Positions 2,340 through 31,308 of a stretch of 34,646 nucleotides of DNA are shown here, piece after piece. The DNA is from Candidatus Methylomirabilota bacterium (GTDB taxonomy: Bacteria; Methylomirabilota; Methylomirabilia; Rokubacteriales; CSP1-6). Made by a program: the position numbers and the translations under genes. The notes beneath the pieces were generated by a model. The model had not been told where the DNA came from, searched no databases, and saw nothing but the letters and a program-made list of their open reading frames with translations. Location: assembly GCA_035260865.1 (NCBI GenBank), contig DATFUK010000336.1, positions 1 to 34,646 of the forward strand. The letters run 5' to 3'. Every line of letters begins with the position of its first letter. Position 1 is the first letter of the stretch.

Positions 2340-3277
2340 TCCCCGGGCTGCGGGTCGGCCACGTCACGGACGCGGTCGGGCTCACCGGCTGCACGGTGAT
2401 CCTGAGCGACGCGCCCGCGGTGGGCGGTGTGGAGATCCGCGGCTGGGCCGCGGGCGTGCACGGCCTCGACTTTCTCGACCCGCGCCACCTCGTGCCCACG
2501 CTCGACGGCGTCGTCCTGGCCGGCGGCAGCGCCTTCGGCCTCGAAGCGATCTGGGGCGTGATGCGCTATCTCGAGGAGCGCGGCGTCGGCTTCCCCACGA
2601 GCCAGACCGTGGTGCCGCACGTGGCCGGCGCCATCCTCTACGACCTCGGGCTCGGCGATCCCACCGCGCGTCCCGATCGCGCGATGGGCCACCGCGCGGC
2701 CGCCGCCGCGCGCCCGGGGCCGGTCGCCGAGGGCAATGTCGGCGCGGGCACCGGGGCCAGTGTCGGTAAGCTCCACGGCATCGCGCGCGCGACCAAGGGC
2801 GGGCTCGGCTGCGCGGTCCTCGAGCGCGGCGGCGTGCACCTGGGCGCGCTGATGGCGGTCAACGCGGTGGGCGACGTGCGCGATCCCGACACGGGGCGGC
2901 TCATCGCGGGGGCGCGCGACGCCACGGACGGCCGCCGGCTGATCGACACCGGCGCCGCGCTCGCCGCGGGCGCCCGCCCACCCGCGTTCCGCCCGACCAA
3001 CACCACCATCGGGCTCGTGGCGACGACCGCGTTGCTCGACAAGGGGGCGGCGGCCCGGCTCGCGCGGCTGGCGATGGACGGCTTCACGCGCGCGCTCTCG
3101 CCACCGCACCTGAACTCCGACGGCGACACGCTCTTCTGCCTCTCGGTGGGCACCGAGCAGGCCGACGTCGACCCCCTCGGCCGCGATGCCGCCGATCTGG
3201 TGGCCCGCGCGATCGCGCGCGCCGTGCGCGCCGCCACCGCGTCCGGCGGCCTCCCCGCCGCCCGCGACCTCGAGTAA
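2336..3277 (+). CDS. P1/S58 (DmpA/BapA-type) family aminopeptidase, Ntn hydrolase
   Basis: Family-typical motifs GNVGAGTGA and TNTTIG and overall DmpA-like layout. 313 aa. GTGA overlap with the upstream ORF. Confidence 0.85.
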   Translation: MIPGLRVGHVTDAVGLTGCTVILSDAPAVGGVEIRGWAAGVHGLDFLDPRHLVPTLDGVVLAGGSAFGLEAIWGVMRYLEERGVGFPTSQTVVPHVAGAILYDLGLGDPTARPDRAMGHRAAAAARPGPVAEGNVGAGTGASVGKLHGIARATKGGLGCAVLERGGVHLGALMAVNAVGDVRDPDTGRLIAGARDATDGRRLIDTGAALAAGARPPAFRPTNTTIGLVATTALLDKGAAARLARLAMDGFTRALSPPHLNSDGDTLFCLSVGTEQADVDPLGRDAADLVARAIARAVRAATASGGLPAARDLE

Positions 3278-3288
3278 CGCCCGTTCTC

Positions 3289-3309
3289 CCTCTCCCCTCA
3301 GGGGAGAGG
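3289..3309. terminator. Perfect 9-bp GC-rich palindrome (CCTCTCCCC-TCA-GGGGAGAGG) between convergent genes; bidirectional terminator or REP-like element
   Basis: Read directly from the sequence. It lies between the dmpA-like stop (3277) and the MBL stop (3331). It is followed by GGGTGAGGGGG. There is no clear U tract. Confidence 0.45.
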
Positions 3310-3330
3310 CCAGGGTGAGGGGGCTGTCGG

Positions 3331-4272
3331 CTACGCCTCGAAGGTAAAGCTCGACCCCACCGACGTCACCACCGTCTCCGACGGCAGGCGCTGGAGCAGG
3401 GTGGCCATGGACTCGAGCCCGGTGCAGTGCTGCGGCACCACCCAGTCCACCTCGAGCGAGCGGAAGGCGTCCACCACCCGCGTGACCCGCTCCTCCTTGA
3501 GGCCGCTCAGGTGGAAGCCGCCGATCACCGCGTGCACCTTGGAGACGCCCGCGATGCGGGTGGCGTTGCGGCAGATCCCGACGATGCCGCGGTGCGAGCA
3601 CGACGTCACCACCACGAGGCCGCGCCCCTTCAGGTTGACGATCAGGGTCTGCTCGCCCAGGAAGTCGTCCGGCACGATCGCCCCGTCGCGCTCGACCCGG
3701 AGATTCGCCGGGATGGGCTCGAAGGGCTCCGCCTCGTGCATCTCCCCGCTCAGCAGCACGCCGTCGGCGAGCAGGGTCGGCGTCCGCACCGTCTCCACCC
3801 GGACATCGTAGCGCTCGATCTCCTCGCGGTAGAGCCGCCCCATGCTGACGCGGTCGGCCCCGCGCTGGTTCCAGCGCGGGAGGAAATGATCCGCCCCGCC
3901 GTGGAACGCGAGCGGCTTCTTCATGGCCGGGCGATAGGTCCGCAGGAAGCCGAGCAGCCCTCCGAAGTGGTCCCAGTGCCCGTGGCTCAGCGCGAGGGCG
4001 TCGATGGTCCCCGGATCGAGGCCGAGCACCCGGAAGTTGTGGGTGATCGCGGCCTCGGAGGGGCCGAAGTCGAAGGCGATCCGCACCGTCTCGCCGCCCC
4101 GCGTGATCTCGACGAAGTGGGCGAGGCCGTGCTCGGCCCGCAGGTCCACCATCTGGCGGGCCACGAAGGCGCTGTACCGGCGCGCGACCTTCTCGTCCTG
4201 ACGGAGCGCGTCGATGTAGTTGTCCACCACCGTGGTGACGCGGACGCGATCGACCGGGGTGAGCGGAGCCAT
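3331..4272 (-). CDS. MBL-fold metallo-hydrolase, 313 aa (track ORF trimmed to ATG 4272)
   Basis: HxHxDH motif (SHGHWDH) and a later CSHRG region. Its start overlaps the upstream stop by 1 nt (TGATG). Confidence 0.85.
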   Translation of the reverse strand: MAPLTPVDRVRVTTVVDNYIDALRQDEKVARRYSAFVARQMVDLRAEHGLAHFVEITRGGETVRIAFDFGPSEAAITHNFRVLGLDPGTIDALALSHGHWDHFGGLLGFLRTYRPAMKKPLAFHGGADHFLPRWNQRGADRVSMGRLYREEIERYDVRVETVRTPTLLADGVLLSGEMHEAEPFEPIPANLRVERDGAIVPDDFLGEQTLIVNLKGRGLVVVTSCSHRGIVGICRNATRIAGVSKVHAVIGGFHLSGLKEERVTRVVDAFRSLEVDWVVPQHCTGLESMATLLQRLPSETVVTSVGSSFTFEA

Positions 4273-9651: not shown

Positions 9652-10440
9652 CTAGGGGAGCGGACGGGTCGGAATGCGGAAGAGCCGGTGCGCGTTCTCG
9701 GTGACGGTCGCCCCGAGCGCCTCGGGGGTGACCCCGCGGAGTCCGGCCACGTGCGCGGCGGTGATGGCCACCCACGCGGGCTCGTTGCGCTGCCCGCGAT
9801 GGGGATGCGGCGGCAGATAGGGGCAGTCGGTCTCCAGCACAAGGCGGTCGGCCGGCACGAAGCGGGCGACGTCGGGGAGGGCCCGCGCGTTCTTGTAGGT
9901 CACCGGCCCCGCGAGGGAGATCATCAGGTCCAGGTCGAGGCAGCGCTTGGCCACCTCCACGTCGGCCGAGAAGCAGTGCATCACGCCGCCGACCTCGCCG
10001 ACGCGCTCCTCCGAGAGGATCGCGAGGGCTTCCGGGTGCGCGTCGCGACAGTGGATGACCACGGGCTTGCCGACCCGCCGCGCCATGTCGAGCTGGCGGC
10101 GCAGCGCGGTCTCCTGCGCGGCGCGGGGTGAGAGGGCGCGGAAGAAGTCGAGGCCCATCTCGCCCAGCGCCACCACCCGGGCCGACCCGCGGGCCAGGCG
10201 CTCCATCGCCTCGAAGTCGGCCTCGGTGACCTCGCCCGCGTCATGCGGATGGATGCCCACCGTGGCCCAGACGTCGGGCAGGCGCTCGGCCAGCGACACC
10301 GCCGCCGGATTGGTCTCGCGGTCGGTGCCGATCGTCACCATCCCGGTCACCCCGGCGGCCTTCGCGCGCTCCAGCACCGCGTCGAGATCCGCCAGCAGCT
10401 CCGGGAAGTGCAGGTGCGCGTGCGTGTCGAAGAGGCGCAT
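9652..10440 (-). CDS. tatD: TatD family metal-dependent hydrolase/DNase
   Basis: MRLFDTHAHLHF start, EMGLDF, VVIHCRDA and LETDCPYL motifs. Confidence 0.9.
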   Translation of the reverse strand: MRLFDTHAHLHFPELLADLDAVLERAKAAGVTGMVTIGTDRETNPAAVSLAERLPDVWATVGIHPHDAGEVTEADFEAMERLARGSARVVALGEMGLDFFRALSPRAAQETALRRQLDMARRVGKPVVIHCRDAHPEALAILSEERVGEVGGVMHCFSADVEVAKRCLDLDLMISLAGPVTYKNARALPDVARFVPADRLVLETDCPYLPPHPHRGQRNEPAWVAITAAHVAGLRGVTPEALGATVTENAHRLFRIPTRPLP

Positions 10441-10462
10441 CGGTCGGTCCCGCGCAATGATA

Positions 10463-11482
10463 TCAGGGCGTGACGGTGAAGCGCAGGCGGCCGATGAGCT
10501 GGCCGCTCGCGGTCACCACATCCACCCGATACTGGCCCGCGATGGGCGCCTTGAGATCGGTGAAGCGCGAGAAGGTGCGGAAGCCCTCGCGCCGGCCCCC
10601 CATCACCGGGGTCGGCAGGATCACGCGGGCGAGCGGCCGGCGATCGCGCCACCAGACGTGCATGATGGGCTGCCGCACGCCGGCCGGCGCGTAGACCGCG
10701 GTGTAGGCGGCCAGCTCTCCCCACTCGAGCACGGTCGCGGTGGACACCACGCCGCCCTGCACCGGCTCCACCGGCTCCAGCTGGGCGACGCCGCGCGCGG
10801 CCACCGCGCGGGCCAGCACGAGGGGCGCGGGCGGCACGAGCCCGCGCGCGAACCAGACGAGGACCAGGGCGAGCGCGGCGGCGGCGAGGGCCACCCCGTG
10901 GGCCCGCAGCCAACCGGTGAACCCTTCCCGCCGGAAGGCGGGAGCGAGCGCGAGCGCGGCCATCACCGCGCTGGCCTCGAGCGAGAGGATGGGCTGCACC
11001 CCGACCAGCGGCAGCGCGACGTTGAGCGCGGCGAAGATGGAGAACGCGAGCAGCGCGTGGTTGAGCCAGGGGCGCGGGTGCACCACTCGCCGATAGATCG
11101 GGTCGACCGCGGTGACGAGCGCGCCGGCCGCGACGAGCGCGGGGAATACCACGTTCCGCGAGTCCAGCGTGGCCGCCGCGTAGTAGGCCGGAAGCACGAA
11201 GAGCAGCAGGTTGTGATAGAGCGTCTGGATCGTGTAGTCCGCGGCGGTGAGCACGAGATCCCGGCCGCGCTCGGTGAGCGGCGCGCGCAGCTCGGTGATG
11301 AGCACGAAGAGCAACCACAGGAGCAGCAGGTAGCCGACGATCCAGCCCACGTGCGGCAGCCCGCGGCGGAAGACGAGCAGGGCGGCCAGCCCCATCGAGA
11401 GCGACACGATCGAGATCGGCCAGCCGCCGAGCCAGCCGACCAGGGGCAGGCGCGGGGCCGGCGCGGCGCCCTGGTCCGTCAC
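10463..11482 (-). CDS. Multi-pass membrane protein with C-terminal DUF2914-like domain, 339 aa
   Basis: GTG 11482 forms a GTGA overlap with the upstream stop. Several TM helices are followed by HVWW...GFRTFS...GQYRVDVVTASGQLIGRLRF, typical of DUF2914. Confidence 0.65.
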   Translation of the reverse strand: MTDQGAAPAPRLPLVGWLGGWPISIVSLSMGLAALLVFRRGLPHVGWIVGYLLLLWLLFVLITELRAPLTERGRDLVLTAADYTIQTLYHNLLLFVLPAYYAAATLDSRNVVFPALVAAGALVTAVDPIYRRVVHPRPWLNHALLAFSIFAALNVALPLVGVQPILSLEASAVMAALALAPAFRREGFTGWLRAHGVALAAAALALVLVWFARGLVPPAPLVLARAVAARGVAQLEPVEPVQGGVVSTATVLEWGELAAYTAVYAPAGVRQPIMHVWWRDRRPLARVILPTPVMGGRREGFRTFSRFTDLKAPIAGQYRVDVVTASGQLIGRLRFTVTP

Positions 11483-12234
11483 GTCCGGACGGGCTCGGCG
11501 GGCACCGGGATCCCCTGCCGCCGCCAGTAGAAGAGGAAGAGCGCGATCGTGAAGAGGGACTGCGCCACCGCCAGCACGCAGTCGAAGAGGACACGCGCCA
11601 CGAAGTGATTGGCGCCGGGCAGCGTCCGGAAGGCCTGGCCGCCCGCGACCGCGACCCCGAAGATCAGCACGAAGAGCGCGGCGGCGGTCCACAGGATGCT
11701 CCAGCGCTGGCCCGCGGTGAGGTCGGCGGCCTGCCGCCAGGCGTTGAACGGGGACGCCCCGCCCAGCACGACCGCCGAGTCCACGAGCGCGAAGCGCACG
11801 AGGAGCACCAGGATGAGCAGGGTCAGACCGATGAGGATCAGGCTCCCCACGAGCCGGAGCACGGACCCCGTCTGGTAGATGAACAGCCAGCCGAGCGAGG
11901 GGAGCAGCAGCACCCAGATCACCACGAAGCGCACCAGCATGAGGCGGGGCCACGCGCTGAACCCCTCGGCGAGGGCCTGCCAGTAGGTGACCGGCACGCC
12001 CTGCTTGATGCGGGCGAGCGCGGACAGCAGCGCGCTCACCACGAACGGATCGAGCACCACCTGCGCGGTGAGGACGACCCGGAGCGCCCGGCCCGCCGAG
12101 TCCTCGCCCGGGTCGAAGAATTCGAGGTAGTTGAGCAGGAGGTGGGTGGGCAGCCACACGGTCAGCGAGATCAGGGTGAAGAGGTGCAGGTGGCGCGCGA
12201 GGAGGCCGAACGTCTCCCCGAGGACGGCGCGCAC
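11479..12234 (-). CDS. Hypothetical multi-pass membrane protein, 251 aa
   Basis: Hydrophobic helices throughout and high GC3. The GTG start shares 1 nt with the metG stop. No family assignment. Confidence 0.55.
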   Translation of the reverse strand: MRAVLGETFGLLARHLHLFTLISLTVWLPTHLLLNYLEFFDPGEDSAGRALRVVLTAQVVLDPFVVSALLSALARIKQGVPVTYWQALAEGFSAWPRLMLVRFVVIWVLLLPSLGWLFIYQTGSVLRLVGSLILIGLTLLILVLLVRFALVDSAVVLGGASPFNAWRQAADLTAGQRWSILWTAAALFVLIFGVAVAGGQAFRTLPGANHFVARVLFDCVLAVAQSLFTIALFLFYWRRQGIPVPAEPVRT

Positions 12235-14135
12235 TACTTGACCTTGGCGCCGGAGGGTAGGTCCCTGTCGAGAGTGATCAGCGACAGCGTGCCGCCGTGC
12301 TCGGCCGCGAGCACCATCCCGTTCGACTCGACGCCCATGAGCGTGGCCGGCTGGAGGTTGGCCACGATGACCACCTTCCGGCCGACGAGGTCGCCGGGCT
12401 CGTAGTGCTCGGCCACTCCCGCCACCAGCGTGCGGGTCTCCTCGCCCACCCGGATCGAGAGCTTGAGGAGCTTCTTGGACTTCGGCACCCGCTCGGCCGC
12501 GAGCACCTCCGCGACCCGCAGCTCCACCTTCTGGAAGTCGGTGATCGGGATCTTGCCCGCATCACCTCCGGCTCCCTCACCCGGCCCTCGCTGGAGGGAG
12601 AGGGTGGTGGGCGCGGCCTTGGTGTCGACGCGCGGGAACAGGCCGGAGATCTTGGTCGCCCGCGGCACCGACGTGAGGCGGCCCACGACGGCGGCCTCGA
12701 GCGTGGGCGGCGCGCTCTGTCCCAGCGCTAGGCGAATCTTGCGGGCCGCGTCCGGCAGGAAGGGATCGAGCATGATCCCGAGGAAGCCGAGCGAGTCCGC
12801 GAGCGTGCACAGCACCCGCTCGAGCCGGCGCCGCTTGGCCGGATCCTTGGCGAGGGCCCACGGCGCATTCGTGTCCACGTAGCGGTTTACCGCGCCGATG
12901 AAGCTCCAGAGCTCGGCGAGGGCCTTCTGGAAGGCGAACTCGCCCATCGCGTGGCCGACGAGGCTCTTCGTCTCCGCGGCGGCCATGTACATCTCCCGGT
13001 CGCCCGGCTCGATCGGCGCGATCACCTGCATGACCGCACCCGCCGCCGCGATCAGGGTGGTGGCGCGGCTCGCCAGGTTGCCGAGGTCGTTGGCCAGGTC
13101 CGCGTTGAGGCGGTCCACGAAGGCCTCCTCGCTGAAATTGGCGTCGAGGCCGAAGTTCATCTCGCGGAGGAGGAAGTACCGGAACGCGTCGTGGCCGTAC
13201 TTGTCGGTGAGCTGGAAGGCCTCCACCACGTTGCCGACGGACTTGGACATCTTGCTGCCGCCCAGCGACCAGTAGCCGTGGACGTTGAGCCGCCGGTAGA
13301 GCGGGATGCCCGCCGCCTTCAGCATGGTCGGCCAGTAGACCCCATGCGGCTTCAGGATGTCCTTGCCGATCAGGTGCTCGACGTGCTCCCAGAGCCCGTG
13401 GGTCTTCGGGTTCTCCGGGTCCGAGACCGCCGAGTAGTAGTTGAGGAGCGCGTCGAACCAGACATAGGTCACGTACTGGTCGTCGAAGGGCAGCGGGATG
13501 CCCCACTCGACCCGCGACCGGGGCCGGCTGATGGACAGATCCTGAAGCGGCTCGCGCAGGAAGCCCAGCACCTCGTTCCGGTACCGGTCGGGCTGGATGA
13601 AGCCGGGGTTGTCCTCCAGGTGCTTGATCAGCCACGCCTGGTACTTCGACATCTTGAAGAAGTAGTTCTTCTCCTTGACGAAGGTCAGCGCGGTCTGGTG
13701 ATCGGGACACTTGCCGTCCACGATCTCCTTCTCGGTGTAGAAGCGCTCGCAGCCGTAGCAGTACCAGCCTCCGTACTCGCCGAAGTAGATCTCCCCCGCG
13801 TCGTGGAGGCGCTGCAGAACCTCCTGCACCACCTTCCGGTGGCGGGGCTCGGTGGTGCGGATGAAGTCGTCGTTGGTGATCCCGAGGCGACGCCACGTCT
13901 CCTGGAAGACCGCCGCGATCTCGTCCGCGTAGGCCTGCGGCGACTTGCCGGCGGCGGCGGCCACCTGGGCGATCCGCTCGCCGTGCTCGTCGGTGCCGGT
14001 GAGGAGGTACACGCGGTCGCCCGCGAGCCGGCGGTAGCGGCACATCGCGTCGGCCATGATGGTGGTGCACGCGTGCCCGAGGTGCGGACGCGCGTTGACG
14101 TAGTAGATCGGGGTCGTGAGATAGAAGGTGCTCAT
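12234..14135 (-). CDS. metG: Methionine--tRNA ligase with C-terminal tRNA-binding (Trbp111/EMAP-like) domain
   Basis: HIGH-region variant (PHLGH), KMSKS motif present, zinc knuckle (CYGCERF...CPDH), and a C-terminal OB-fold tail. Confidence 0.95.
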   Translation of the reverse strand: MSTFYLTTPIYYVNARPHLGHACTTIMADAMCRYRRLAGDRVYLLTGTDEHGERIAQVAAAAGKSPQAYADEIAAVFQETWRRLGITNDDFIRTTEPRHRKVVQEVLQRLHDAGEIYFGEYGGWYCYGCERFYTEKEIVDGKCPDHQTALTFVKEKNYFFKMSKYQAWLIKHLEDNPGFIQPDRYRNEVLGFLREPLQDLSISRPRSRVEWGIPLPFDDQYVTYVWFDALLNYYSAVSDPENPKTHGLWEHVEHLIGKDILKPHGVYWPTMLKAAGIPLYRRLNVHGYWSLGGSKMSKSVGNVVEAFQLTDKYGHDAFRYFLLREMNFGLDANFSEEAFVDRLNADLANDLGNLASRATTLIAAAGAVMQVIAPIEPGDREMYMAAAETKSLVGHAMGEFAFQKALAELWSFIGAVNRYVDTNAPWALAKDPAKRRRLERVLCTLADSLGFLGIMLDPFLPDAARKIRLALGQSAPPTLEAAVVGRLTSVPRATKISGLFPRVDTKAAPTTLSLQRGPGEGAGGDAGKIPITDFQKVELRVAEVLAAERVPKSKKLLKLSIRVGEETRTLVAGVAEHYEPGDLVGRKVVIVANLQPATLMGVESNGMVLAAEHGGTLSLITLDRDLPSGAKVK

Positions 14136-18473: not shown

Positions 18474-18560
18474 GCGAGCATTATGCGCGTGGCCCGGAAA
18501 CTTCGGGAGCCCGTCGCCCGTTCTCTGAGAGTCACCCACTATCGTGGAAAGGAGCACGCC

Positions 18561-19112
18561 ATGCGTCGCATGACCCTGCTGCTGCTCGCGACCCTGCTGC
18601 TGGCCGCCGTCGGCCTCGGCGCGGCCGGCCCGGCCGCCGCCCTGGAAGTCGGCCAGAAGGCGCCCGATTTCACCTTGCCCGGTCCCGGTAACAAGCCCGT
18701 GAAGCTGTCCGAATTGACCGCCAAGGGTCCGGTGGTCGTCTTCACCTTCATCCAGGCGTTCACCAGCACCTGAAGCAAGGAGCTCCTCGGCTTCGAGGAG
18801 AGCCTGCCCAAGTTCACCGCCGCCGGGGCCCAGGTCGTGGGCGTGAGCGCCGACCACGCGGCCACGCTCGAGGCCTTCACCAAGCAGAACAAGATCAACT
18901 ACCTCCTGCTGTCCGACTTCCGCCGCGCGATGCTACCCGGGTACGACGCGCTGGTCACCGACGAGAAGAGCCCGATCTTCCGCTACGCCAAGCGCGCCTA
19001 CTACGTCATCGACAAGAACGGCGTGGTCCGGTACATGAAGGTCATGGAGAACCCGCTCGACCTGCTGGAGCCGGCCGACGTGCTGAAGGCGCTCAAGGAC
19101 GCGGGCGTGTGA
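18561..19112 (+). CDS. AhpC/TSA-family peroxiredoxin with in-frame TGA (18771-18773) read as selenocysteine; N-terminal signal peptide; 183 aa
   Basis: Track ORFs 18114..18773 and 18837..19112 share a frame. Read-through gives VVVFTFIQAFTST-U-SKELLGFEES...GVSADH...LLSDF, the Prx active-site layout with U at the peroxidatic Cys. GGAAAGGAG lies 6 nt upstream of ATG 18561. A hairpin follows the TGA. Confidence 0.8.
18779..18804 (+). promoter_or_regulatory. Putative bacterial SECIS hairpin for the peroxiredoxin UGA
   Basis: 7-bp stem CUCCUCG/CGAGGAG (18783-18789 and 18794-18800) with a GCUU loop at 18790-18793. There are 2 further GC pairs beyond a 2x2 internal loop. The loop starts 17 nt after the UGA. 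Confidence 0.55.
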
Positions 19113-19663
19113 GCACGCGCCCATTCGCCGCATCCATCCTGATCGCGGCGGCGCTCTGGGCCGGGGCCGCGGCGGCGCAGCCCGCCGCCGCGCCGCCGGC
19201 CTGGGCGAAGCTTGGCGTCCAGCCCTACGAATCGCCCAAGCCCGCCCCGGCCTTCGCGCTGCCCGCGCTCGACGGGCGCACCGTGCGGCTCGAGGATCAG
19301 AAGGGCAAAGCGCTGCTGCTCTTCTTCTGGGCCACCTGGTGACCGACCTGCCGGGAGGAGTTACCTTCCGTCAATCGGTTGTACGAGGAATTCAAGGGCC
19401 AGGGGCTCGAAGTCTTGCTGATCAGCTTTCGCGAGAGCGCGGATCTCGTGAAGCGCACGGTGGCCGAGCGCGGCTACACCGCGCCGGTGCTGCTCGACGC
19501 CTCGGGTGACGTCACCGGCCGGGCCTACGGCGTCTTCGGGCCGCCCACCGTCTACCTGGTGGACCGCGAGGGGCGGCTGGTCGGCCGGATGATCGGCGGC
19601 GGCGACTGGAGCGGCGCCACCGCGCGCGAGGTCATCCGCGGCTTCGTCGCGCCCAAGCGCTGA
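19109..19663 (+). CDS. TlpA/ResA-like thioredoxin-fold thiol:disulfide oxidoreductase with in-frame TGA (19340-19342) read as selenocysteine (UxxC motif); signal peptide; 184 aa
   Basis: Track ORFs 19109..19342 and 19379..19663 share a frame. Read-through gives LLLFFWATW-U-PTC-REELPSVNRLYEEFKGQGLEVL, the canonical WCxxC redox motif with U in the first position. The GTG start overlaps the upstream stop by 4 nt. Confidence 0.8.
19352..19370 (+). promoter_or_regulatory. Putative bacterial SECIS hairpin for the TlpA-like UGA
   Basis: 7-bp stem CGGGAGG/CCUUCCG (one G-U pair) with an AGUUA loop at 19359-19363. The loop starts 17 nt after the UGA, the same spacing as in the neighbouring gene. Confidence 0.5.
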
Positions 19664-19667
19664 CCGG

Positions 19668-20240
19668 CTAGCTGCGGCCGGCGGCCAGTGGGGGCGGGCC
19701 CGCCTGGTCGCGGGCGTGGATCGCCATCGCGACGAGCGCGCCCACCAGATCGCCGAGGCCGGCGCGCGCGGCCGGGTCGGCGAGCTTGCCGTCCTGGAAG
19801 TGACCGGACTCCAGGTACACGCTGGTCGGCACCACCCGCGCCCCGAACCACGCGAGCACCGCGCGGAGCTGCCAGTCCACCCCCAGGTAGTGATGGAGCG
19901 TCGCGCCCATCGCCACGATGCCCACCGGCTTGGCCCGCAGCGCCTCCACCGGCGTGAGATCGAGCAGGTTCTTGAGCGCGCCGGTGAACGAGGCGCGGTA
20001 GACGGGGCTCGCGAGCAGGACCGCGTCGGCCTCGGCGATCGCGCCGACGACCCGCGCGGTGTCGTCGGGGTAGCGGTCGAGCGCGCGCCCGTCCGCGAAG
20101 GAGACGCGATGCTCGCCCAGGCTCAGCACGGTGGCGGCGACCGCCGGCTGCTCGGCCGCGCGATCGGCCGCGAAGCGCACCGCCGCGTCGAGACGCCCGG
20201 GCGGCGTCACCGCGCCCACCACCGCCAGGACCCGGGTCAC
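19668..20240 (-). CDS. NADPH-dependent FMN reductase (SsuE-like), 190 aa
   Basis: ASPVYRASFTGALKNLLDL closely matches the SsuE-family motif. GTGA overlap with the upstream monooxygenase stop. Confidence 0.8.
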   Translation of the reverse strand: MTRVLAVVGAVTPPGRLDAAVRFAADRAAEQPAVAATVLSLGEHRVSFADGRALDRYPDDTARVVGAIAEADAVLLASPVYRASFTGALKNLLDLTPVEALRAKPVGIVAMGATLHHYLGVDWQLRAVLAWFGARVVPTSVYLESGHFQDGKLADPAARAGLGDLVGALVAMAIHARDQAGPPPLAAGRS

Positions 20241-27445: not shown

Positions 27446-28234
27446 TCATAGGGCCTCCGCGGCCAGGACCTCGAGGTCCTGTGCGCGCGCTTCGAACCAG
27501 GCGAGGCGCTCCCGCAGCCGTACCACCTCGCCGATGATCGCGAGCATCGGCGGCGCCAGCCGGGCCGCGCGGGCGCGGGTCACGACGGCGCGGAGCGTGG
27601 TGACCGTGACCTCCTGCGCCTCGGTCGTGCCCCAGCGGATCAGCGCCACCGGAGTGTCGGGGGAGCGGCCGTGCCCGACCAGCTCTGCGGCGATGCGCGG
27701 GAGGCTGGCGGCGCCCATCAGCACGACGAGCGTGTCCACCGCGGTGGCGAGCCGGCCCCAGTCCACATCGGGGTGATCCTTGGTCGGATCCTCGTGCCCG
27801 GTCACGACCGCGAACGAGGAGCCCAGGCCCCGGTGGGTCACCGGGATGCCGGCGTAGGCGGGCACCGCGAGCGCGGCGCTCACCCCCGGCACCACCTCGA
27901 AGGGGATGCCCGCCTCCGCCAGCGCCAAGCCCTCCTCGCCTCCGCGGCCGAACACGAAGGGATCGCCGCCCTTGAGGCGGACCACCGAGCGACCGAGGCG
28001 CGCCTGCTCGATCAGCCGCGCGTTGATCTGGTCCTGGGGCAGGCAGTGGCCCCCGGCGCGCTTGCCCGCGAAGAGGCGCAGCGCGGCGGCCGGGGCCTCG
28101 TCGAGGAGCGCGGGATTCACGAGGCGATCGTAGACGACCACGTCGGCGCGGCGCAGGATCTCGAGCCCGCGCACCGTCATGAGCCCGGGATCGCCCGGCC
28201 CGGCGCCGACCAGGTAGACGCGTCCCTCGTCCAT
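27446..28234 (-). CDS. cobA: Uroporphyrinogen-III C-methyltransferase (SUMT), 262 aa
   Basis: VYLVGAGPGDPGLMTVRG, VVRLKGGDPFVFGRGGEE and VPGVSA motifs. Its start shares 1 nt with the upstream stop. Confidence 0.9.
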   Translation of the reverse strand: MDEGRVYLVGAGPGDPGLMTVRGLEILRRADVVVYDRLVNPALLDEAPAAALRLFAGKRAGGHCLPQDQINARLIEQARLGRSVVRLKGGDPFVFGRGGEEGLALAEAGIPFEVVPGVSAALAVPAYAGIPVTHRGLGSSFAVVTGHEDPTKDHPDVDWGRLATAVDTLVVLMGAASLPRIAAELVGHGRSPDTPVALIRWGTTEAQEVTVTTLRAVVTRARAARLAPPMLAIIGEVVRLRERLAWFEARAQDLEVLAAEAL

Positions 28235-28863
28235 CAGGCCGACTCGAGATCCCGCGCGAGCCGGGCGCGCGCCTGGCGGTAGCGCTTGTCCGCGATGAGC
28301 CGGCGCAGGCCGCCGTCGAGCGCGCGCCGCCACCGGTCCGGCCCCGCGGAGACCGCCCGCCGCCGCAGGTCTTCTCGCGCCTCCGCGGCCATCTCGACCA
28401 GCGTCGCGTGGTCCTCGGTGAGATAGCCCTCCAGCTCCTCCCGGATCGCCCGCGCCGCCGCCGGGCTCGCCCCGCCGGTGGATACCGCGACCACGAGCCG
28501 CCCGCGCCGGATCACCGCGGGCAGGATGAAGTCGCAGCGCGCGGGCTCGTCGGCCGCGTTGACCCAGATCCCGCGCTCGCGCCCCTCCGCCGCGACCGCG
28601 CCGCTCACCGTGGGATCGTCGGTGGCGACGAGCGCGAGGCGGCGCCCCGCGACGTCACCGTCCTGGTACGGGCGTGGAAGATGCTCGATCCGGCCGGCCG
28701 CGACCCAGCCGGCGAGCCGCGGCGTCACGGTGGGGCTCACCACCGTGACGTTCGCGCCCGCGGCCAGCAGGCCCTCGACCTTCCCCTCGGCCACCGGACC
28801 GCCCCCCACGACGAGGACGGGGCGATCCGTGAGATCGAGGAAGACCGGGTAGTAGGCGCTCAC
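28234..28863 (-). CDS. sirC: Precorrin-2 dehydrogenase / sirohydrochlorin ferrochelatase (SirC / CysG N-domain-like)
   Basis: YPVFLDL..RPVLVVGGGPVA Rossmann start and a VSTGGASPAAARAIRE motif. Confidence 0.85.
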   Translation of the reverse strand: MSAYYPVFLDLTDRPVLVVGGGPVAEGKVEGLLAAGANVTVVSPTVTPRLAGWVAAGRIEHLPRPYQDGDVAGRRLALVATDDPTVSGAVAAEGRERGIWVNAADEPARCDFILPAVIRRGRLVVAVSTGGASPAAARAIREELEGYLTEDHATLVEMAAEAREDLRRRAVSAGPDRWRRALDGGLRRLIADKRYRQARARLARDLESA

Positions 28864-28864
28864 G

Positions 28865-29509
28865 TCAGCGCTTGGCCGGCTCGGGCTGGGGCGTGAGGCG
28901 CAGGTACGGCTTGAGCGCGCGCCAGCCCCTCGGGAACTTCGCCCGCGCCTCCTCGTCGGTGACCGCGGGCACGATGATCACGTCCTCGCCCGGCCTCCAG
29001 TTCACCGGGGTCGCGACGCGATGTCCGTCGGTGAGCTGCAGCGAATCGATCACGCGCAGGATCTCGTCGAAGTTGCGGCCGGTGGTCTGGGGATACGTGA
29101 TGAACAGGCGGATCTTCTTCTTGGGATCGATCACGAACACGGTGCGGACGGTGTAGACCTCGTCGTGGGCGGGATGGATCATGCCGTAGAGGCTGGCCAC
29201 CTTGCGGTCCGGATCGGCGATGATCGGGAAGTCCACCGCGTAGCCCTGCGTCTCCTTGATGTCGGCGAGCCAGCCCTGGTGCGACGTGACCGGATCGATC
29301 GAGAGGCCGATCGCCTTGACCCCGCGCCGCTCGAACTCGGGCCGGAGGCGCGCGACGTAGCCGAGCTCGGTCGTGCACACCGGCGTGAAGTCGCGCGGGT
29401 GGGAGAAGAGGACCGCCCAGCTGTCGCCGAGCCAGTCGTGGAAGCTGACGGGGCCGGCGGTGGTCTCGGCCTGGAAATCGGGAGCGGTGTCGCCTAGTCG
29501 CAGGGTCAT
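28865..29509 (-). CDS. 1-Cys peroxiredoxin (Prx6 type), 214 aa
   Basis: LFSHPRDFTPVCTTELG active site and a Prx6-type C-terminal extension. AAGGAGA lies 7 nt upstream of ATG 29509. Confidence 0.9.
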   Translation of the reverse strand: MTLRLGDTAPDFQAETTAGPVSFHDWLGDSWAVLFSHPRDFTPVCTTELGYVARLRPEFERRGVKAIGLSIDPVTSHQGWLADIKETQGYAVDFPIIADPDRKVASLYGMIHPAHDEVYTVRTVFVIDPKKKIRLFITYPQTTGRNFDEILRVIDSLQLTDGHRVATPVNWRPGEDVIIVPAVTDEEARAKFPRGWRALKPYLRLTPQPEPAKR

Positions 29510-29543
29510 GGTCGTGTCTCCTTGTCGGTTCGGGTTGTCGGGG

Positions 29544-31241
29544 TCAGCCTTCGAGGCCATGGGGGACGGGGCCGGGGGAGGCGTCGCGGGTCACCGCCGC
29601 GACGGGCGCGCCCGCCAGGTACGTCCGGAGCTCGTCGTCGGTGCGCGCGGCGCAGAACGCGCGGAAGCTCTCGCCCGCGTGGCGCTCGGCGAGGTAGACG
29701 CGCAGCAGGCGCTCCACCGCCTCGGGCACCGCGTGGGCGGGCACCCGGTAGCCGACGGGCCGGGCCACCGCCTGGTGGCGGCCGACCGCGCCGCCCACGC
29801 AGAAGTAGTAGGCGTCCACCAGGCGGCCGTCCATCTTGATCTTCTTGCCCTCGATACCGATGTCCGCGATCCAGTGCTGGCCGCAGCTGTTGGGGCAGCC
29901 GGTGACGTTGATGCGCACGTGCTCCTGGAAACCGGGCAGGCGGCCCTCCAGGTCCTCCACGAGCCAGCGGGCGAAGGCCTTGGTCTCGGTCAGCGCGAGC
30001 TTGCAGAACTCGCTGCCGGTGCAGGCCACCGTCCCGCGGCGGAACGGAGACGCGTCCAGCGGGAAGCCGGCGCGCTCGATCGCGCGCTCGAGCTCGGCCG
30101 CCCGGGCCCGGGGCGCGTTGACCACGATGAGGTTCTGCATCGTGGTGGTCCGGAGCTCCCCGGTGCCGAAGCGCTCCGCGAGCCCGGCGACCTCGCGCAT
30201 CTGGTCCGGGGTGAGCCGGCCCCGCAGGATCGGCAGGCCCGCGTAGACGAGCCCGGCCTGCTTCTGCGGATGGATCCCCACGTGGTCGCGATAGGCCTCC
30301 TCGGGCAGGGTCTCCGGGACCGCCGGATCGAGGGAAAAGCCCAGGCGCGCGTGGAGCGCGTTCAGGAACCGGTCCGGCGTCCAGCCGTGGTCGAGGAAGA
30401 GGAACTTGAGTCGCGCCTTCTCGCGGTTCTGGCGGAGCACGTCGCTGTCGCGGAAGATCTCGGAGACGCCCTTGACCACCGCGAGCACCTGGTCGGGCCG
30501 CACGAAGGCGTTGACCCGGAGCGCGAGATGCGGCTGGGTGGACAGCCCGCCGCCCACCCGTAGCGAGTAGCCCACGCGCCCGCTGTAGCCGTCGCGCACC
30601 GCGGTGAGACCCACGTCGTTGATCTCGGGATAGCTGCACCACACGCGGCAGCCGGTGATCGAGACCTTGTACTTGCGCGGCAGGTTGTAGAACTCGGCGC
30701 TGCCGTTCACCATCGCGGTCGCGGCCTCCACGAGCGGCGAGGCGTCCACGATCTCGTCGGCGTCGAGCCCGGCGAGCGGGCAGCCGGTGATGTTGCGCGT
30801 CACGTCGCCGCAGGTGCCCAGGCTGCTGAGCCCGCACTCGCCCAGCGCGGAGAAGATCGCGGGCAGGTCCTCGATCCGCACCCAGTGCAGCTGCACGTTC
30901 TGGCGGACGGTGAGATCGGCCACTCCGCGCGCGTGGCGCTCGGCCAGGTCGGCGAGCACGCGGAGCTGCGCGGCCGACAGGATCCCGTTGGGGATGCGGA
31001 CGCGCAGCATGAAGTAAGGCACCGCCTTCCCTTCTCCGCCCTTGCCTCCCACCGCGCCCACCCCGTCCCCCTGGGTATAGATGCCCCACCATCGGAAGTA
31101 CGTGCCGAGCCACTCCGGGGGAATCGCCTGGAAGCCTTCCCGCGCGAAGCGGACGATCTCCGCGTGCGCGGCCCACGGGTTCAGCTCCCGCTTGAGCCGC
31201 TCCACCCGCTGCGCCTTGGTCTCCTTCGCCGCCTCGTTCAC
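29544..31241 (-). CDS. Ferredoxin-dependent sulfite reductase, NirA/SirA family (siroheme-[4Fe-4S]), 565 aa
   Basis: Two nitrite/sulfite reductase repeats and the Cys cluster CTGSEFC...TGCPNSC. AGGAGG lies 7 nt upstream of GTG 31241. The sulfite versus nitrite assignment is inferred from the siroheme and Cys-leader context. Confidence 0.88.
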   Translation of the reverse strand: MNEAAKETKAQRVERLKRELNPWAAHAEIVRFAREGFQAIPPEWLGTYFRWWGIYTQGDGVGAVGGKGGEGKAVPYFMLRVRIPNGILSAAQLRVLADLAERHARGVADLTVRQNVQLHWVRIEDLPAIFSALGECGLSSLGTCGDVTRNITGCPLAGLDADEIVDASPLVEAATAMVNGSAEFYNLPRKYKVSITGCRVWCSYPEINDVGLTAVRDGYSGRVGYSLRVGGGLSTQPHLALRVNAFVRPDQVLAVVKGVSEIFRDSDVLRQNREKARLKFLFLDHGWTPDRFLNALHARLGFSLDPAVPETLPEEAYRDHVGIHPQKQAGLVYAGLPILRGRLTPDQMREVAGLAERFGTGELRTTTMQNLIVVNAPRARAAELERAIERAGFPLDASPFRRGTVACTGSEFCKLALTETKAFARWLVEDLEGRLPGFQEHVRINVTGCPNSCGQHWIADIGIEGKKIKMDGRLVDAYYFCVGGAVGRHQAVARPVGYRVPAHAVPEAVERLLRVYLAERHAGESFRAFCAARTDDELRTYLAGAPVAAVTRDASPGPVPHGLEG

Positions 31242-31254
31242 GTGCGTTCCTCCT

Positions 31255-31308
31255 GAAAACACGAAAGCCGAGTGGCGGCCGCCTCTTCACGGCCTCCACT
31301 CGGCTTTG
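31255..31308 (-). terminator. Strong intrinsic-terminator-like hairpin plus U tract in the 5' leader of the sulfite reductase gene (putative attenuator)
   Basis: The minus-strand RNA reads AAAGCCGAGUGG-A-GGCCG-UGAAGAGG-CGGCC-G-CCACUCGGCUUU, giving 12+5 bp. It is followed by CGUGUUUUC and then immediately by AGGAGG. It lies downstream of a promoter, not directly after a gene. Confidence 0.6.

What the first reader, a model, noticed from the sequence alone, without database searches (positions are those of the whole stretch)
19109..19663. TlpA/ResA-like thioredoxin-fold gene with TGA in the first position of the CxxC motif (UxxC)
Track fragments 19109..19342 and 19379..19663 share a frame. Read-through of TGA 19340-19342 yields GKALLLFFWATW-U-PTC-REELPSVNRLYEEFKGQGLEVLLISF. 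The canonical motif of TlpA/ResA-type oxidoreductases is FWATWC-P-x-C-R-x-E-x-P, so the stop replaces the nucleophilic Cys precisely. A 7-bp hairpin (19352-19370, loop AGUUA) follows. The M shown at 19379 in the track is an internal TTG (Leu) codon, not a real start.
Basis: partly seen in the sequence, partly recalled or inferred. Interest (0 to 1): 0.8.

Follow-up and report, generated by a model that had tools for sequence, protein, structure and literature searches.

The report
Selenocysteine TlpA-like reductase gene (UxxC)
The in-frame TGA is real and almost certainly encodes selenocysteine in the active site of an exported TlpA/ResA-type thiol reductase of a Methylomirabilota (Rokubacteria) bacterium. 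This kind of bacterial selenoprotein is already known, but public databases annotate this one as two gene fragments.

Summary
19109..19663 (+) is one reading frame with a single internal TGA (19340-19342) at the first position of the CxxC motif of a TlpA/ResA-like thioredoxin-fold protein. A 7-bp hairpin (19352-19370, loop AGUUA) follows it.

Comparative evidence supports selenocysteine:
- About 35 loci have TGA at this codon (26 distinct downstream sequences). More distant homologues have TGC or TGT.
- The 100 codons after the TGA are under purifying selection.
- The hairpin meets every rule of the published bacterial SECIS model.
- The hairpin is built from codons that are very rare in this 72% GC genome. 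It shows compensatory changes, and two Cys-type relatives encoding the same or a similar peptide have lost it.
- TGA is the normal stop codon here and ends this gene too.

Not shown: selA, selB, selC and selD could not be searched for in this genome, and selenium insertion is untested.

The gene is translationally coupled to an upstream exported peroxiredoxin. That gene also carries an in-frame TGA and encodes no cysteine in the mature protein. The pair probably forms an envelope peroxide-reducing relay.

UxxC Prx-like/TlpA-like selenoproteins are a long-known family, and Methylomirabilota is reported to be rich in selenoproteins. I rate this a new member of a known kind, of modest interest.

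The parts
19109..19663 (+). Complete TlpA/ResA-like selenoprotein gene: GTG start, 184 codons with one internal TGA, TGA terminator at 19661-19663.
   Evidence: The orthologue alignment runs across the TGA to the natural stop. PDB sequence matches: 3kcm 1.4e-28, ResA 4nmu 2.1e-25, TlpA 1jfu 2e-16.
19109..19177 (+). Predicted signal peptide (MSTRPFAASILIAAALWAGAAAA|Q). Judged by eye: a basic residue, a hydrophobic core, then AxA.
   Evidence: Sequence reading. All orthologues have an equivalent N-terminal hydrophobic leader. No signal-peptide predictor was available.
19340..19342 (+). In-frame TGA, the predicted selenocysteine codon (U of UxxC).
   Evidence: TGA at the homologous codon in about 35 loci (26 distinct sequences in alignment A1). 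It is TGC or TGT in all loci of 46% identity or less and in the Cys-type relatives L107, L163 and L164.
19340..19351 (+). Redox motif U-P-T-C. The Cys at 19349-19351 is the only cysteine of the mature protein.
   Evidence: It aligns with the CxxC of ResA and 3kcm.
19352..19370 (+). Core of the SECIS-like hairpin: 7-bp stem CGGGAGG/CCUUCCG and apical loop AGUUA (19359-19363). The loop begins 16 nt after the UGA.
   Evidence: -9.3 kcal/mol for the hairpin alone; 99.1% of cells paired, 2 compensatory pairs; synonymous divergence 0.045 in the stem against 0.30 elsewhere.
19349..19373 (+). Extended helix: U19349-A19373 and G19350-C19372 flank the core stem.
   Evidence: Pair 10-34 is invariant and pair 11-33 is kept in 25 of 26 sequences.
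19095..19112 (+). Translational-coupling junction. It holds a Shine-Dalgarno-like AAGGA (19095-19099), the GTG start (19109-19111) and the upstream gene's TGA stop (19110-19112), which overlap as GTGA.
   Evidence: The GTGA or ATGA overlap is conserved in all 8 orthologous loci examined.
18561..19112 (+). Upstream partner gene: an exported PrxQ/BCP-type peroxiredoxin with its own in-frame TGA (18771-18773, FTST-U-SKE). The mature protein has no cysteine.
   Evidence: AhpC-TSA 2.7e-29 across the stop; best NCBIfam match is Bcp-type thiol peroxidase; both TGAs present in 29 related loci; zero Cys in the 8 orthologues examined.
18783..18800 (+). Hairpin after the peroxiredoxin TGA: stem CUCCUCG/CGAGGAG, loop GCUU. 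The loop also begins 16 nt after that UGA.
   Evidence: -12.7 kcal/mol. It is conserved in close orthologues and differs in distant ones.

Best explanation
19109..19663 is a single gene for an exported TlpA/ResA-like thiol:disulfide reductase whose nucleophilic active-site residue is selenocysteine (U-P-T-C).

Decoding: UGA 19340-19342 is read by Sec-tRNA(Sec). SelB delivers that tRNA after binding the hairpin just downstream (stem 19352-19370, apical loop AGUUA, loop starting 16 nt after the UGA). The real terminator is the TGA at 19661-19663, which has no such hairpin.

Function: the gene is translationally coupled (GTGA overlap) to an upstream exported PrxQ-type peroxiredoxin. That enzyme's peroxidatic residue is also encoded by UGA, and its mature form has no cysteine. 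The likely job of the TlpA-like protein is to recycle this peroxiredoxin in the cell envelope. Its selenolate would attack the oxidised selenium of the peroxiredoxin, and its own Cys would then resolve the mixed bond to leave an internal Se-S bond. A DsbD/CcdA/ScsB-type membrane reductase encoded elsewhere would re-reduce that bond.

Shown here: the single gene, TGA conservation paired with Cys in homologues, selection on the downstream frame, RNA-level conservation of the hairpin, the operon structure, and the Cys content. Inferred: Sec insertion itself, export, the partnership with the peroxiredoxin, and the upstream electron donor.
For: 1. One gene. Pfam AhpC-TSA and Redoxin domains span the TGA. 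PDB sequence matches cover residues 44-169. A model of a 63%-identical Cys orthologue (pLDDT 88.8) places CxxC at the N-terminus of helix 73-92. It superposes on ResA, 3kcm and TlpA with TM-scores of 0.75-0.90 normalised to the target.

2. Sec/Cys pairing. TGA sits at the same codon in 5 of 5 Methylomirabilota/Rokubacteria genome loci and about 30 metagenome loci of 59-99% identity. The codon is TGC or TGT in more than 130 loci of 46% identity or less and in the close Cys-type relatives L107, L163 and L164.

3. The downstream frame is translated. Nei-Gojobori dN/dS is 0.23-0.45 over the 100 codons after the TGA at dS 0.4-1.0, against 0.10-0.42 upstream. One close pair with a low downstream dS (0.17) gave 0.58.

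4. SECIS.

5. RNA-level selection.
- The hairpin uses Leu TTA (0.1% of 777 Leu codons in the window), or TTG (1.5%) in some orthologues, and Pro CCT (2.5%).
- These codons are kept in 24-25 of 25 orthologues.
- Synonymous differences are 0.045 in stem codons against 0.30 in the rest of the gene.
- Of 234 pair cells, 99.1% are paired.
- G-C becomes A-U in L004 and A-U becomes G-C in L103 through changes on both sides. Pair 16-28 occurs as GU, GC and AU. No shuffle out of 500 reached these values.

6. Natural control. Cys-type L163 encodes the same peptide CREELPSV with the codons CGC and CCG, which break the stem. L164 uses CTG for Leu and also lacks the hairpin.

7. TGA is an ordinary stop here. 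It ends 15 of 20 confident genes in the window, including this gene and its neighbour.

8. Lineage. Sec-type enzymes are reported from Methylomirabilota, and a MAG of the phylum is reported with 63 predicted selenoprotein genes.

9. Partner. A Prx(TGA)-TlpA(TGA) pair occurs in 29 related loci. The stop/start overlap is conserved, the mature Prx is Cys-free, and U and C are the only redox residues of the TlpA-like protein. There is a precedent in the Caulobacter ScsB-TlpA-PprX envelope peroxide pathway (PMC3322552).
Against: The window has no tRNA-Sec and no selA, selB or selD.

No Rfam family matches the hairpin. Its fold energy is no better than shuffled sequence (z = -0.63).

Covariation rests on single sequences per compensatory pair.

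The Cys-type relative L107 still has the hairpin. Part of the hairpin's conservation could therefore come from the conserved peptide CREELPSV, or L107 may be a recent Sec-to-Cys conversion.

Export was judged by eye only. The Prx-TlpA partnership rests on gene order and on analogy. No DsbD/CcdA/ScsB gene lies in the window.
Confidence: 0.88

Rival explanations
1. The UGA is recoded through the same SECIS and SelB route, but cysteine is inserted by a non-canonical tRNA (tRNA-ReC, also called selC*). The mature protein would then carry an ordinary CxxC motif.
For: Such tRNAs decode UGA as Cys when a SECIS lies downstream. They are found in 13-17% of the genomes surveyed in PMC13582414. Sequence data cannot tell this apart from Sec insertion. 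Sec-type and Cys-type forms of this family are interleaved in a rough NJ tree.
Against: That survey named Armatimonadota, Desulfobacterota and JAPLJL01 among the UXXU-type genomes carrying tRNA-ReC, but not Methylomirabilota. The tRNA was rare (about 2.3%) in Sec-type genomes without UXXU motifs. Keeping a costly UGA plus hairpin across about 35 loci merely to insert Cys is hard to explain when one TGA-to-TGC change does the same, as in L163 and L164. No tRNA of any kind lies in the window.
Confidence: 0.04
2. SelB-independent stop-codon read-through: a near-cognate tRNA (Trp, Cys or Arg) reads the UGA, helped by the downstream hairpin. Most ribosomes would stop.
For: UGA is the leakiest stop codon. 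The hairpin's fold energy is unremarkable on its own. The Sec machinery has not been shown for this genome.
Against: The stop sits exactly on the catalytic Cys. Inserting Trp or Arg there would kill a reductase, yet the whole domain is under purifying selection. The hairpin geometry and the G-U in the loop match the SelB-type SECIS model. The neighbouring gene has a UGA at its own catalytic residue.
Confidence: 0.03
3. The gene is a pseudogene, or the TGA is a sequencing or assembly error. Alternatively the two fragments are separate genes, as public annotation has them.
For: Databases list the halves as separate proteins of 71-77 and 94-105 residues, named 'TlpA disulfide reductase family protein, partial', 'peroxiredoxin' or 'hypothetical protein'. 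One low-coverage contig has GGA at the site (L162).
Against: The same TGA appears in about 35 independently assembled loci of 59-99% identity. dN/dS is below 0.5 on both sides in all diverged pairs. Neither half is a complete thioredoxin fold. The 'start' of the second fragment is the TTG or TTA Leu codon inside the hairpin loop or another internal codon. Homologues in other phyla are single polypeptides.
Confidence: 0.02
4. The organism uses a genetic code in which TGA is a sense codon, either Trp (code 4) or Gly (code 25).
For: Some gene callers produced full-length proteins with W at the site (P0003, whose DNA in L161 has TGA).
Against: TGA ends 15 of 20 confident genes in the window, including this gene and its neighbour. 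Only two coding-like in-frame TGAs exist in 34.6 kb, and both lie on catalytic residues. The genome is 72% GC, unlike known TGA-reassigned lineages.
Confidence: 0.01

Closest known systems
Prx-like thiol:disulfide oxidoreductase ('Prx-like 1') selenoprotein family: PF00578 domain with a UxxC motif. It appears in bacterial selenoproteome surveys (PMC1794560, PMC2398784) and in the family table of PMC13188914.
   Same: It shares the AhpC-TSA (PF00578) domain with a thioredoxin-type UxxC motif in place of CxxC, a SECIS hairpin directly after the UGA inside the coding region, and abundant Cys homologues.
   Different: Membership was judged only by the literature's operational definition (Pfam family plus motif). 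The reference protein WP_010940744.1 could not be fetched for comparison. The reference members come from Deltaproteobacteria, Clostridia and marine samples, whereas this clade is Methylomirabilota from soil and groundwater. The fixed operon with a Sec-peroxiredoxin is not described in the papers I read. [quoted passage not shown]
'Redoxin family protein' selenoprotein: PF08534, UxxC, example HEU0032618.1, in the table of PMC13188914.
   Same: The protein also matches PF08534 Redoxin (5.3e-23) and has UxxC. The example accession looks like those given to third-party-annotated MAG proteins, such as HEY7868051.1 in this family.
   Different: The example sequence could not be retrieved, so identity with this family is untested.
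ResA (Bacillus), TlpA (Bradyrhizobium) and CcmG/DsbE: extracytoplasmic Cys-type thiol-disulfide reductases.
   Same: It shares the fold, the position of the motif at the N-terminus of helix 1, the WCxxC context, the Glu six residues after the first Cys (ResA Glu80), the cis-Pro 'PT' loop and an N-terminal export or anchor sequence.
   Different: Sec replaces the nucleophilic Cys. Scores fall below the NCBIfam cut-offs for ResA (99.5 against 170), TlpA (71.6 against 230) and DsbE (55.8 against 123), so it is a family member but not an equivalog. There are no cytochrome c maturation or Sco/CoxB genes nearby; the neighbour is a peroxiredoxin.
Caulobacter crescentus ScsB-TlpA-PprX envelope peroxide-reduction pathway (PMC3322552).
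   Same: Both involve an exported PrxQ-type peroxiredoxin kept reduced by an exported TlpA-like thioredoxin. Here the two genes are adjacent and translationally coupled.
   Different: Both catalytic residues are Sec here, and the peroxiredoxin has no resolving Cys. No ScsB/DsbD gene lies in the window. The partnership is inferred, not tested.
NCBIfam NF041054, ResA-like WAxxUGC motif-containing selenoprotein. [quoted passage not shown]
   Same: It is a TlpA/ResA-like fold with Sec in the active site.
   Different: That family's motif is UGC, not UxxC. The score is 54.7 bits against a cut-off of 300, and the model is 354 positions long against 184 residues here. This protein is not a member.

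Membership tests
Bacterial selenoprotein gene (SelB/SECIS-dependent UGA decoding) | In-frame UGA aligned with a redox-active Cys in homologues | tested here: met
   TGA aligns with TGC or TGT in more than 130 homologous loci and in the close Cys-type relatives L107, L163 and L164.
Bacterial selenoprotein gene (SelB/SECIS-dependent UGA decoding) | Reading frame conserved and under purifying selection downstream of the UGA | tested here: met
   dN/dS is 0.23-0.45 over the 100 downstream codons at dS 0.4-1.0, similar to the upstream part. Alignment.
Bacterial selenoprotein gene (SelB/SECIS-dependent UGA decoding) | bSECIS model: apical loop 3-9 nt, upper stem 4-16 bp, G in the first two loop positions, 16-37 nt between UGA and loop, MFE no higher than -7.5 kcal/mol | tested here: met
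   The loop AGUUA is 5 nt with G at position 2 followed by U. The stem is 7 bp, the spacing 16 nt and the energy -9.3 kcal/mol. The rules are quoted from PMC13188914.
Bacterial selenoprotein gene (SelB/SECIS-dependent UGA decoding) | The hairpin is conserved as RNA: covariation, suppressed synonymous change, and loss in Cys forms | tested here: met
   99.1% of cells are paired and two pairs show changes on both sides. Synonymous divergence is 0.045 in the stem against 0.30 elsewhere. The rare codons TTA/TTG and CCT are retained. The hairpin is lost in Cys-type L163 and L164 but retained in L107.
Bacterial selenoprotein gene (SelB/SECIS-dependent UGA decoding) | selA, selB, selC (tRNA-Sec) and selD present in the same genome | not testable with these tools
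   The 34.6-kb window holds none of them, and the 36 related loci scanned hold no tRNA. Literature reports Sec-type enzymes in Methylomirabilota and a MAG of the phylum with 63 predicted selenoprotein genes.
Bacterial selenoprotein gene (SelB/SECIS-dependent UGA decoding) | Selenium shown in the protein (75Se labelling or mass spectrometry) | not testable with these tools
   This needs an experiment.
TlpA/ResA/CcmG-like extracytoplasmic thiol-disulfide oxidoreductases | Thioredoxin fold of the TlpA/ResA type | tested here: met
   PDB sequence matches: 3kcm 1.4e-28, ResA 4nmu 2.1e-25, TlpA 1jfu 2e-16. A model of Cys orthologue P0004 (pLDDT 88.8) matches ResA, 3kcm and TlpA with TM-scores of 0.75-0.90 to the target. 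The model is of an orthologue, not of the window protein.
TlpA/ResA/CcmG-like extracytoplasmic thiol-disulfide oxidoreductases | W-C-x-x-C active site at the N-terminus of helix 1, followed by a conserved Glu and a cis-Pro loop | tested here: met
   W-U-P-T-C-R-E-E aligns with WCKPCEKE of ResA 4nmu and WCPPCREE of 3kcm, and GPPT aligns with the 'PT' cis-Pro loop. The first Cys is replaced by the UGA codon.
TlpA/ResA/CcmG-like extracytoplasmic thiol-disulfide oxidoreductases | N-terminal signal peptide or membrane anchor | tested here: met
   By inspection only: MSTRPFAASILIAAALWAGAAAA|Q, with equivalent leaders in all orthologues. No predictor was run.
ResA, TlpA or DsbE as specific equivalogs (NCBIfam NF002854, NF047696, TIGR00385) | Score above the curated cut-off | tested here: not met
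   Scores are 99.5 against 170, 71.6 against 230 and 55.8 against 123 bits. This is a family-level relative, not an orthologue of the characterised enzymes.
ResA-like WAxxUGC selenoprotein (NCBIfam NF041054) | Score above the cut-off and a UGC motif | tested here: not met
   The score is 54.7 against 300 bits, and the motif is UPTC, not UGC.
Prx-like 1 / Prx-like thiol:disulfide oxidoreductase selenoproteins | PF00578 domain with a UxxC motif (the operational definition used in PMC2398784 and PMC13188914) | tested here: met
   PF00578 matches at 1.7e-27 across the UGA and the motif is U-P-T-C.
Prx-like 1 / Prx-like thiol:disulfide oxidoreductase selenoproteins | Direct sequence relationship to reference members (for example WP_010940744.1) | not tested
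   Reference sequences could not be retrieved by accession with these tools.

The most novel reading that the evidence does not exclude
The two adjacent, translationally coupled genes encode a dedicated all-selenium peroxide-reduction relay in the cell envelope. A cysteine-free 1-Sec PrxQ-type peroxiredoxin would be recycled by the UxxC TlpA-like protein through an intermolecular Se-Se intermediate. The Cys of UxxC would then resolve that intermediate. This would be a selenoprotein reductase/peroxidase pair that has co-evolved as an operon across Methylomirabilota. It is not described in the selenoproteome papers I could read.
Probability: 0.35. Interest if true: 0.5.

Novelty: new member of a known kind. 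Interest (0 to 1): 0.3.

Why it matters
Three points follow from this.

1. Annotation. Hundreds of database entries for this family are truncated halves named 'partial TlpA', 'peroxiredoxin' or 'hypothetical'. A few are full-length only because the TGA was translated as Trp. Correct calls would add two selenoproteins per genome across a widespread soil and groundwater phylum.

2. Selenium biology. The finding fits recent claims that Methylomirabilota carry very large selenoproteomes. It shows repeated Sec/Cys switching inside one family, with the SECIS decaying once Cys is fixed.

3. Mechanism. A conserved operon of an exported Cys-free Sec-peroxiredoxin and a UxxC reductase is a tractable case for asking what Sec buys in the oxidising cell envelope.

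None of this changes current understanding of selenocysteine decoding.

Tried and rejected
- Rfam scans found nothing relevant: no hits at gathering thresholds over the whole window, and only chance-level hits in 18500-19800 at E up to 10.
- ARAGORN found no tRNA in the window or in 36 related loci.
- Fold z-scores of the hairpin regions were not significant (-0.6 to -1.0). I dropped thermodynamics as evidence and used codon-level and comparative tests instead.
- Pfam scans of about 40 candidate ORFs found no selA, selB, selD or DsbD/CcdA/ScsB in the window. Its genes are housekeeping ones: metG, tmk, holB, TatD, Lhr helicase, sulfite reductase and sirohaem synthesis.
- Literature searches for selenocysteine with Rokubacteria or Methylomirabilis gave nothing specific. 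The supplement of PMC13582414 is not held. The Cell Reports paper on the 63-selenoprotein MAG was not found in the library.
- One contig look-up returned no DNA (P0119).
- I did not query with recalled E. coli SelB or SelD sequences. The 120 best hits would all be enterobacterial and would say nothing about this lineage.
- A scan for other coding-like in-frame TGAs in the window found only the two known ones. The two other hits were an antisense frame and a same-frame gene junction.
- The NJ tree of Sec and Cys forms has no support values, so I use it only as a hint of repeated conversions.
Full report
**1. Observation**

- ORFs 19109..19342 and 19379..19663 share a frame.
- Translating 19109-19663 gives 184 codons with one internal stop...EDQKGKALLLFFWATW*PTCREELPSVNRLYEEF.... 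The frame ends at TGA 19661-19663.
- The 'M' at 19379 is the TTG Leu codon of ...NRLYEEF....
- RNA folding puts a 7-bp stem CGGGAGG/CCUUCCG at 19352-19358 and 19364-19370, with loop AGUUA at 19359-19363. Two flanking pairs extend it (U19349-A19373 and G19350-C19372).
- With the stop read as Cys, Pfam AhpC-TSA (1.7e-27) and Redoxin (5.3e-23) match residues 44-165, which runs across the TGA.

The fold energy alone is no better than shuffled sequence in this 72% GC DNA (z = -0.63). The case therefore has to rest on comparison with related sequences.

**2. Related sequences**

A protein search returned a dozen full-length relatives at 52-67% identity. It also returned more than 100 clusters of fragments of about 101 residues covering only the part after the TGA. 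Sources name these fragments 'TlpA disulfide reductase family protein, partial [Methylomirabilota bacterium]', 'peroxiredoxin' or 'hypothetical protein'.

At the DNA level:
- All five close genome loci (Rokubacteria/Methylomirabilota MAGs, 62-90% identity) have TGA at the same codon and a conserved frame to the natural stop.
- All metagenome loci of 59-99% identity that cover the site also have TGA, except L107, which has TGC.
- Loci fetched through fragment proteins add more TGA cases (L165-L171). They also add two Cys-type relatives (L163 and L164, both TGC).
- All loci of 46% identity or less, from other phyla, have TGC or TGT.
- A 'full-length' database protein with W at the site (P0003) has TGA in its DNA, so a gene caller used code 4. 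One with G (P0002) has GGA, on a contig of coverage 1.9.

**3. Is the downstream part translated?**

Nei-Gojobori estimates on diverged pairs give dN/dS of 0.23-0.45 for the 100 codons after the TGA, at dS 0.4-1.0. The 34 codons before it give 0.10-0.42. One close pair with a low downstream dS (0.17) gave 0.58. Both halves evolve as one protein. Neither half alone is a thioredoxin fold.

**4. Is TGA otherwise a stop?**

TGA ends 15 of 20 confident genes in the window, including this gene and its upstream neighbour. A scan for TGAs flanked on both sides by coding-like composition found only 18771 and 19340 as credible cases. A reassigned genetic code is excluded.

**5. The hairpin as a SECIS element**

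The published bacterial SECIS model asks for four things (quoted from PMC13188914):
- an apical loop of 3-9 nt on an upper stem of 4-16 bp;
- a G in the first two loop positions, usually followed by G or U;
- 16-37 nt between the UGA and the loop;
- a minimum free energy no higher than -7.5 kcal/mol.

Here the loop is AGUUA and the stem is 7 bp. The spacing is 16 nt and the hairpin alone folds at -9.3 kcal/mol. All four rules are met.

The RNA-level evidence is stronger than the fit to the model.
- The hairpin is written with Leu TTA (0.1% of 777 Leu codons in the window's genes), or TTG (1.5%) in some orthologues, and with Pro CCT (2.5%). It also uses Arg CGG rather than the preferred CGC.
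- In 25 distinct Sec-type orthologues, CCT and CGG are each kept in 24. The Leu codon is always TTA or TTG, apart from one GTA (Val).
- At codons where the amino acid is identical, synonymous differences are 0.045 in the six stem codons. They are 0.49 at the loop Leu codon and 0.30 in the rest of the gene.
- On 26 distinct sequences, 99.1% of pair cells are standard pairs.
- Pair 15-29 changes from G-C to A-U in L004: a synonymous CGA together with a Ser-to-Leu change.
- Pair 17-27 changes from A-U to G-C in L103: a Glu-to-Gly change together with a synonymous CCC.
- Pair 16-28 occurs as GU, GC and AU. No shuffle out of 500 reached the observed values.
- A natural control exists. Cys-type L163 encodes the identical peptide CREELPSV but with CGC and CCG, which puts two mismatches in the stem. 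Cys-type L164 uses CTG for Leu and has no hairpin.
- Cys-type L107 keeps the hairpin. This fits a recent Sec-to-Cys change, like the 'remnant SECIS' cases described in PMC1794560.

**6. What the protein is**

By sequence it is closest to PDB 3kcm, a Geobacter thioredoxin-family protein with the motif FWATWCPPCREEIPS (1.4e-28). ResA (4nmu, 2.1e-25) and Bradyrhizobium TlpA (1jfu, 2e-16) follow. In the two alignments printed (3kcm and ResA 4nmu), the WCxxC motif, the Glu six residues after the first Cys and the cis-Pro 'PT' loop all align.

An AlphaFold model of the 63%-identical Cys orthologue P0004 has pLDDT 88.8. It places CxxC at the start of helix 73-92 and superposes on ResA, 3kcm and TlpA with TM-scores of 0.75-0.90 normalised to the target.

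No NCBIfam equivalog cut-off is reached: ResA 99.5 against 170, TlpA 71.6 against 230. The known selenoprotein model NF041054 (WAxxUGC) scores 54.7 against 300. The protein is therefore a TlpA/ResA-family member, not an orthologue of the characterised enzymes, and not a member of the UGC family.

The N-terminus reads as a signal peptide (MSTRPFAASILIAAALWAGAAAA|Q), judged by eye. The mature protein has a single Cys, the one in UxxC.

**7. Context and likely function**

The upstream gene (18561..19112) is a PrxQ/BCP-type peroxiredoxin with a signal peptide. It has its own in-frame TGA at the peroxidatic position (FTST-U-SKE, 18771-18773). A hairpin follows whose loop also begins 16 nt after that UGA.
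- Its mature sequence has no cysteine in any of the 8 orthologues examined.
- Its stop overlaps the TlpA-like start as GTGA or ATGA in every one of those loci, with an AAGGA 9 nt upstream here.
- Both TGAs occur together in 29 related loci.
- L164 combines a Sec-type peroxiredoxin with a Cys-type TlpA-like protein, so the double-Sec state is common but not obligatory.

The best functional analogy is the Caulobacter envelope pathway ScsB to TlpA to PprX, in which an exported TlpA reduces an exported PrxQ-type peroxiredoxin (PMC3322552).

I infer that the UxxC protein recycles the oxidised Sec-peroxiredoxin and is itself re-reduced by a DsbD/CcdA/ScsB-type protein. No such gene lies in the window. 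This part rests on gene order and analogy only.

**8. What is not shown**

The window has no tRNA and no selA, selB or selD. The window appears to come from a 37-kb metagenome contig: L081, WNFK01066621.1, is 99% identical.

Support for the lineage comes from the literature:
- Sec-type [NiFeSe] hydrogenases are reported from Methylomirabilota. Across that survey's Sec-type genomes of nine phyla, selABCD was detected in about 90% (PMC13582414).
- A 2026 review cites a Methylomirabilota MAG with 63 predicted selenoprotein genes (PMC13188914).

The same hydrogenase paper notes that tRNA-ReC can insert Cys at SECIS-linked UGA codons. Sequence data cannot exclude this, so I keep it as a low-probability rival.

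**9. Comparison with what is known, and novelty**

Thioredoxin-fold proteins with UxxC are the commonest kind of bacterial selenoprotein.
- 'Prx-like thiol:disulfide oxidoreductase' (PF00578, UxxC) and 'thiol:disulfide interchange protein' (UxxC) appear in the earliest surveys. 'Prx-like 1' had 225 members in the GOS data (PMC1794560, PMC2398784).
- The 2026 review also lists a 'Redoxin family protein' (PF08534, UxxC).

By the operational definition of Pfam family plus motif, this gene belongs to that class. I could not compare it directly with the reference sequences. It is best described as a new, and in databases mis-annotated, member of a known kind.

The part I did not find described is the conserved operon of a Cys-free Sec-peroxiredoxin with a UxxC reductase. 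[quoted passage not shown]

**10. Verdict**

- Confidence that this is a Sec-decoded UGA in a single TlpA-like gene is about 0.88.
- Interest is 0.3. The finding is solid and useful for annotation, with a moderately interesting two-selenoprotein module, but it would not surprise a selenoprotein specialist.

Noticed in passing
window 18561-19112 (+), TGA at 18771-18773: The upstream gene is an exported PrxQ/BCP-type peroxiredoxin with an in-frame TGA at the peroxidatic position (FTST-U-SKE). Its mature protein has no cysteine in any of the 8 orthologues examined. The TGA is conserved in 29 related loci. Its downstream hairpin is conserved only among close relatives.
   Followed up: partly
window 19095-19112: The TlpA-like GTG start overlaps the peroxiredoxin TGA stop (GTGA), and an AAGGA lies 9 nt upstream. 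The GTGA or ATGA overlap is conserved in all orthologous loci examined, which implies translational coupling.
   Followed up: yes
proteins P0030, P0066, P0003, P0002, P0039; loci L161, L162: Public annotation of this family is wrong in several ways. The halves are called as separate 'partial TlpA', 'peroxiredoxin' or 'hypothetical' proteins. P0003 shows Trp at the site because the TGA was translated with code 4. P0002 has a real GGA (Gly) on a contig of coverage 1.9 whose hairpin is intact. P0039 shows Ser at the site; I did not check its DNA.
   Followed up: partly
loci L163, L164, L107 and the tree: Cys-type and Sec-type members are interleaved in a rough NJ tree, which suggests repeated Sec/Cys conversions within Methylomirabilota. 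L163 and L164 have lost the hairpin and L107 keeps it. L164 pairs a Sec-type peroxiredoxin with a Cys-type TlpA-like protein.
   Followed up: partly
locus L001 (DASQAL010000178.1): The record is labelled Candidatus Acidoferrum sp. (Acidobacteriota). Yet its gene pair is 90% identical to the window and clusters with the Methylomirabilota/Rokubacteria loci. The contig is probably mis-binned or mislabelled.
   Followed up: no
locus L081 (WNFK01066621.1, 37,343 bp): This contig is 99% identical over the whole gene and is of similar length to the window. It is probably the source contig or a near-identical strain.
   Followed up: no
protein P0001 (131 aa, from a 573-bp contig): This is a circularly permuted chimera: the C-terminal half of the protein is followed by the N-terminal half and ends at ...FFWATW. 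It looks like an assembly artefact of a short looped contig.
   Followed up: no
window 28868-29590 (-): A second peroxiredoxin of the 1-Cys type (AhpC-TSA plus 1-cysPrx_C domains, no in-frame stop) lies next to sulfite/nitrite reductase and sirohaem synthesis genes (27449-31286).
   Followed up: no
window 810-3601 and 9899-12561: These stretches hold long ORFs on both strands with few Pfam matches: Peptidase_S58 at 2336-3274, and DUF5924 plus DUF2914 at 10466-12157. Gene content there is unresolved.
   Followed up: no
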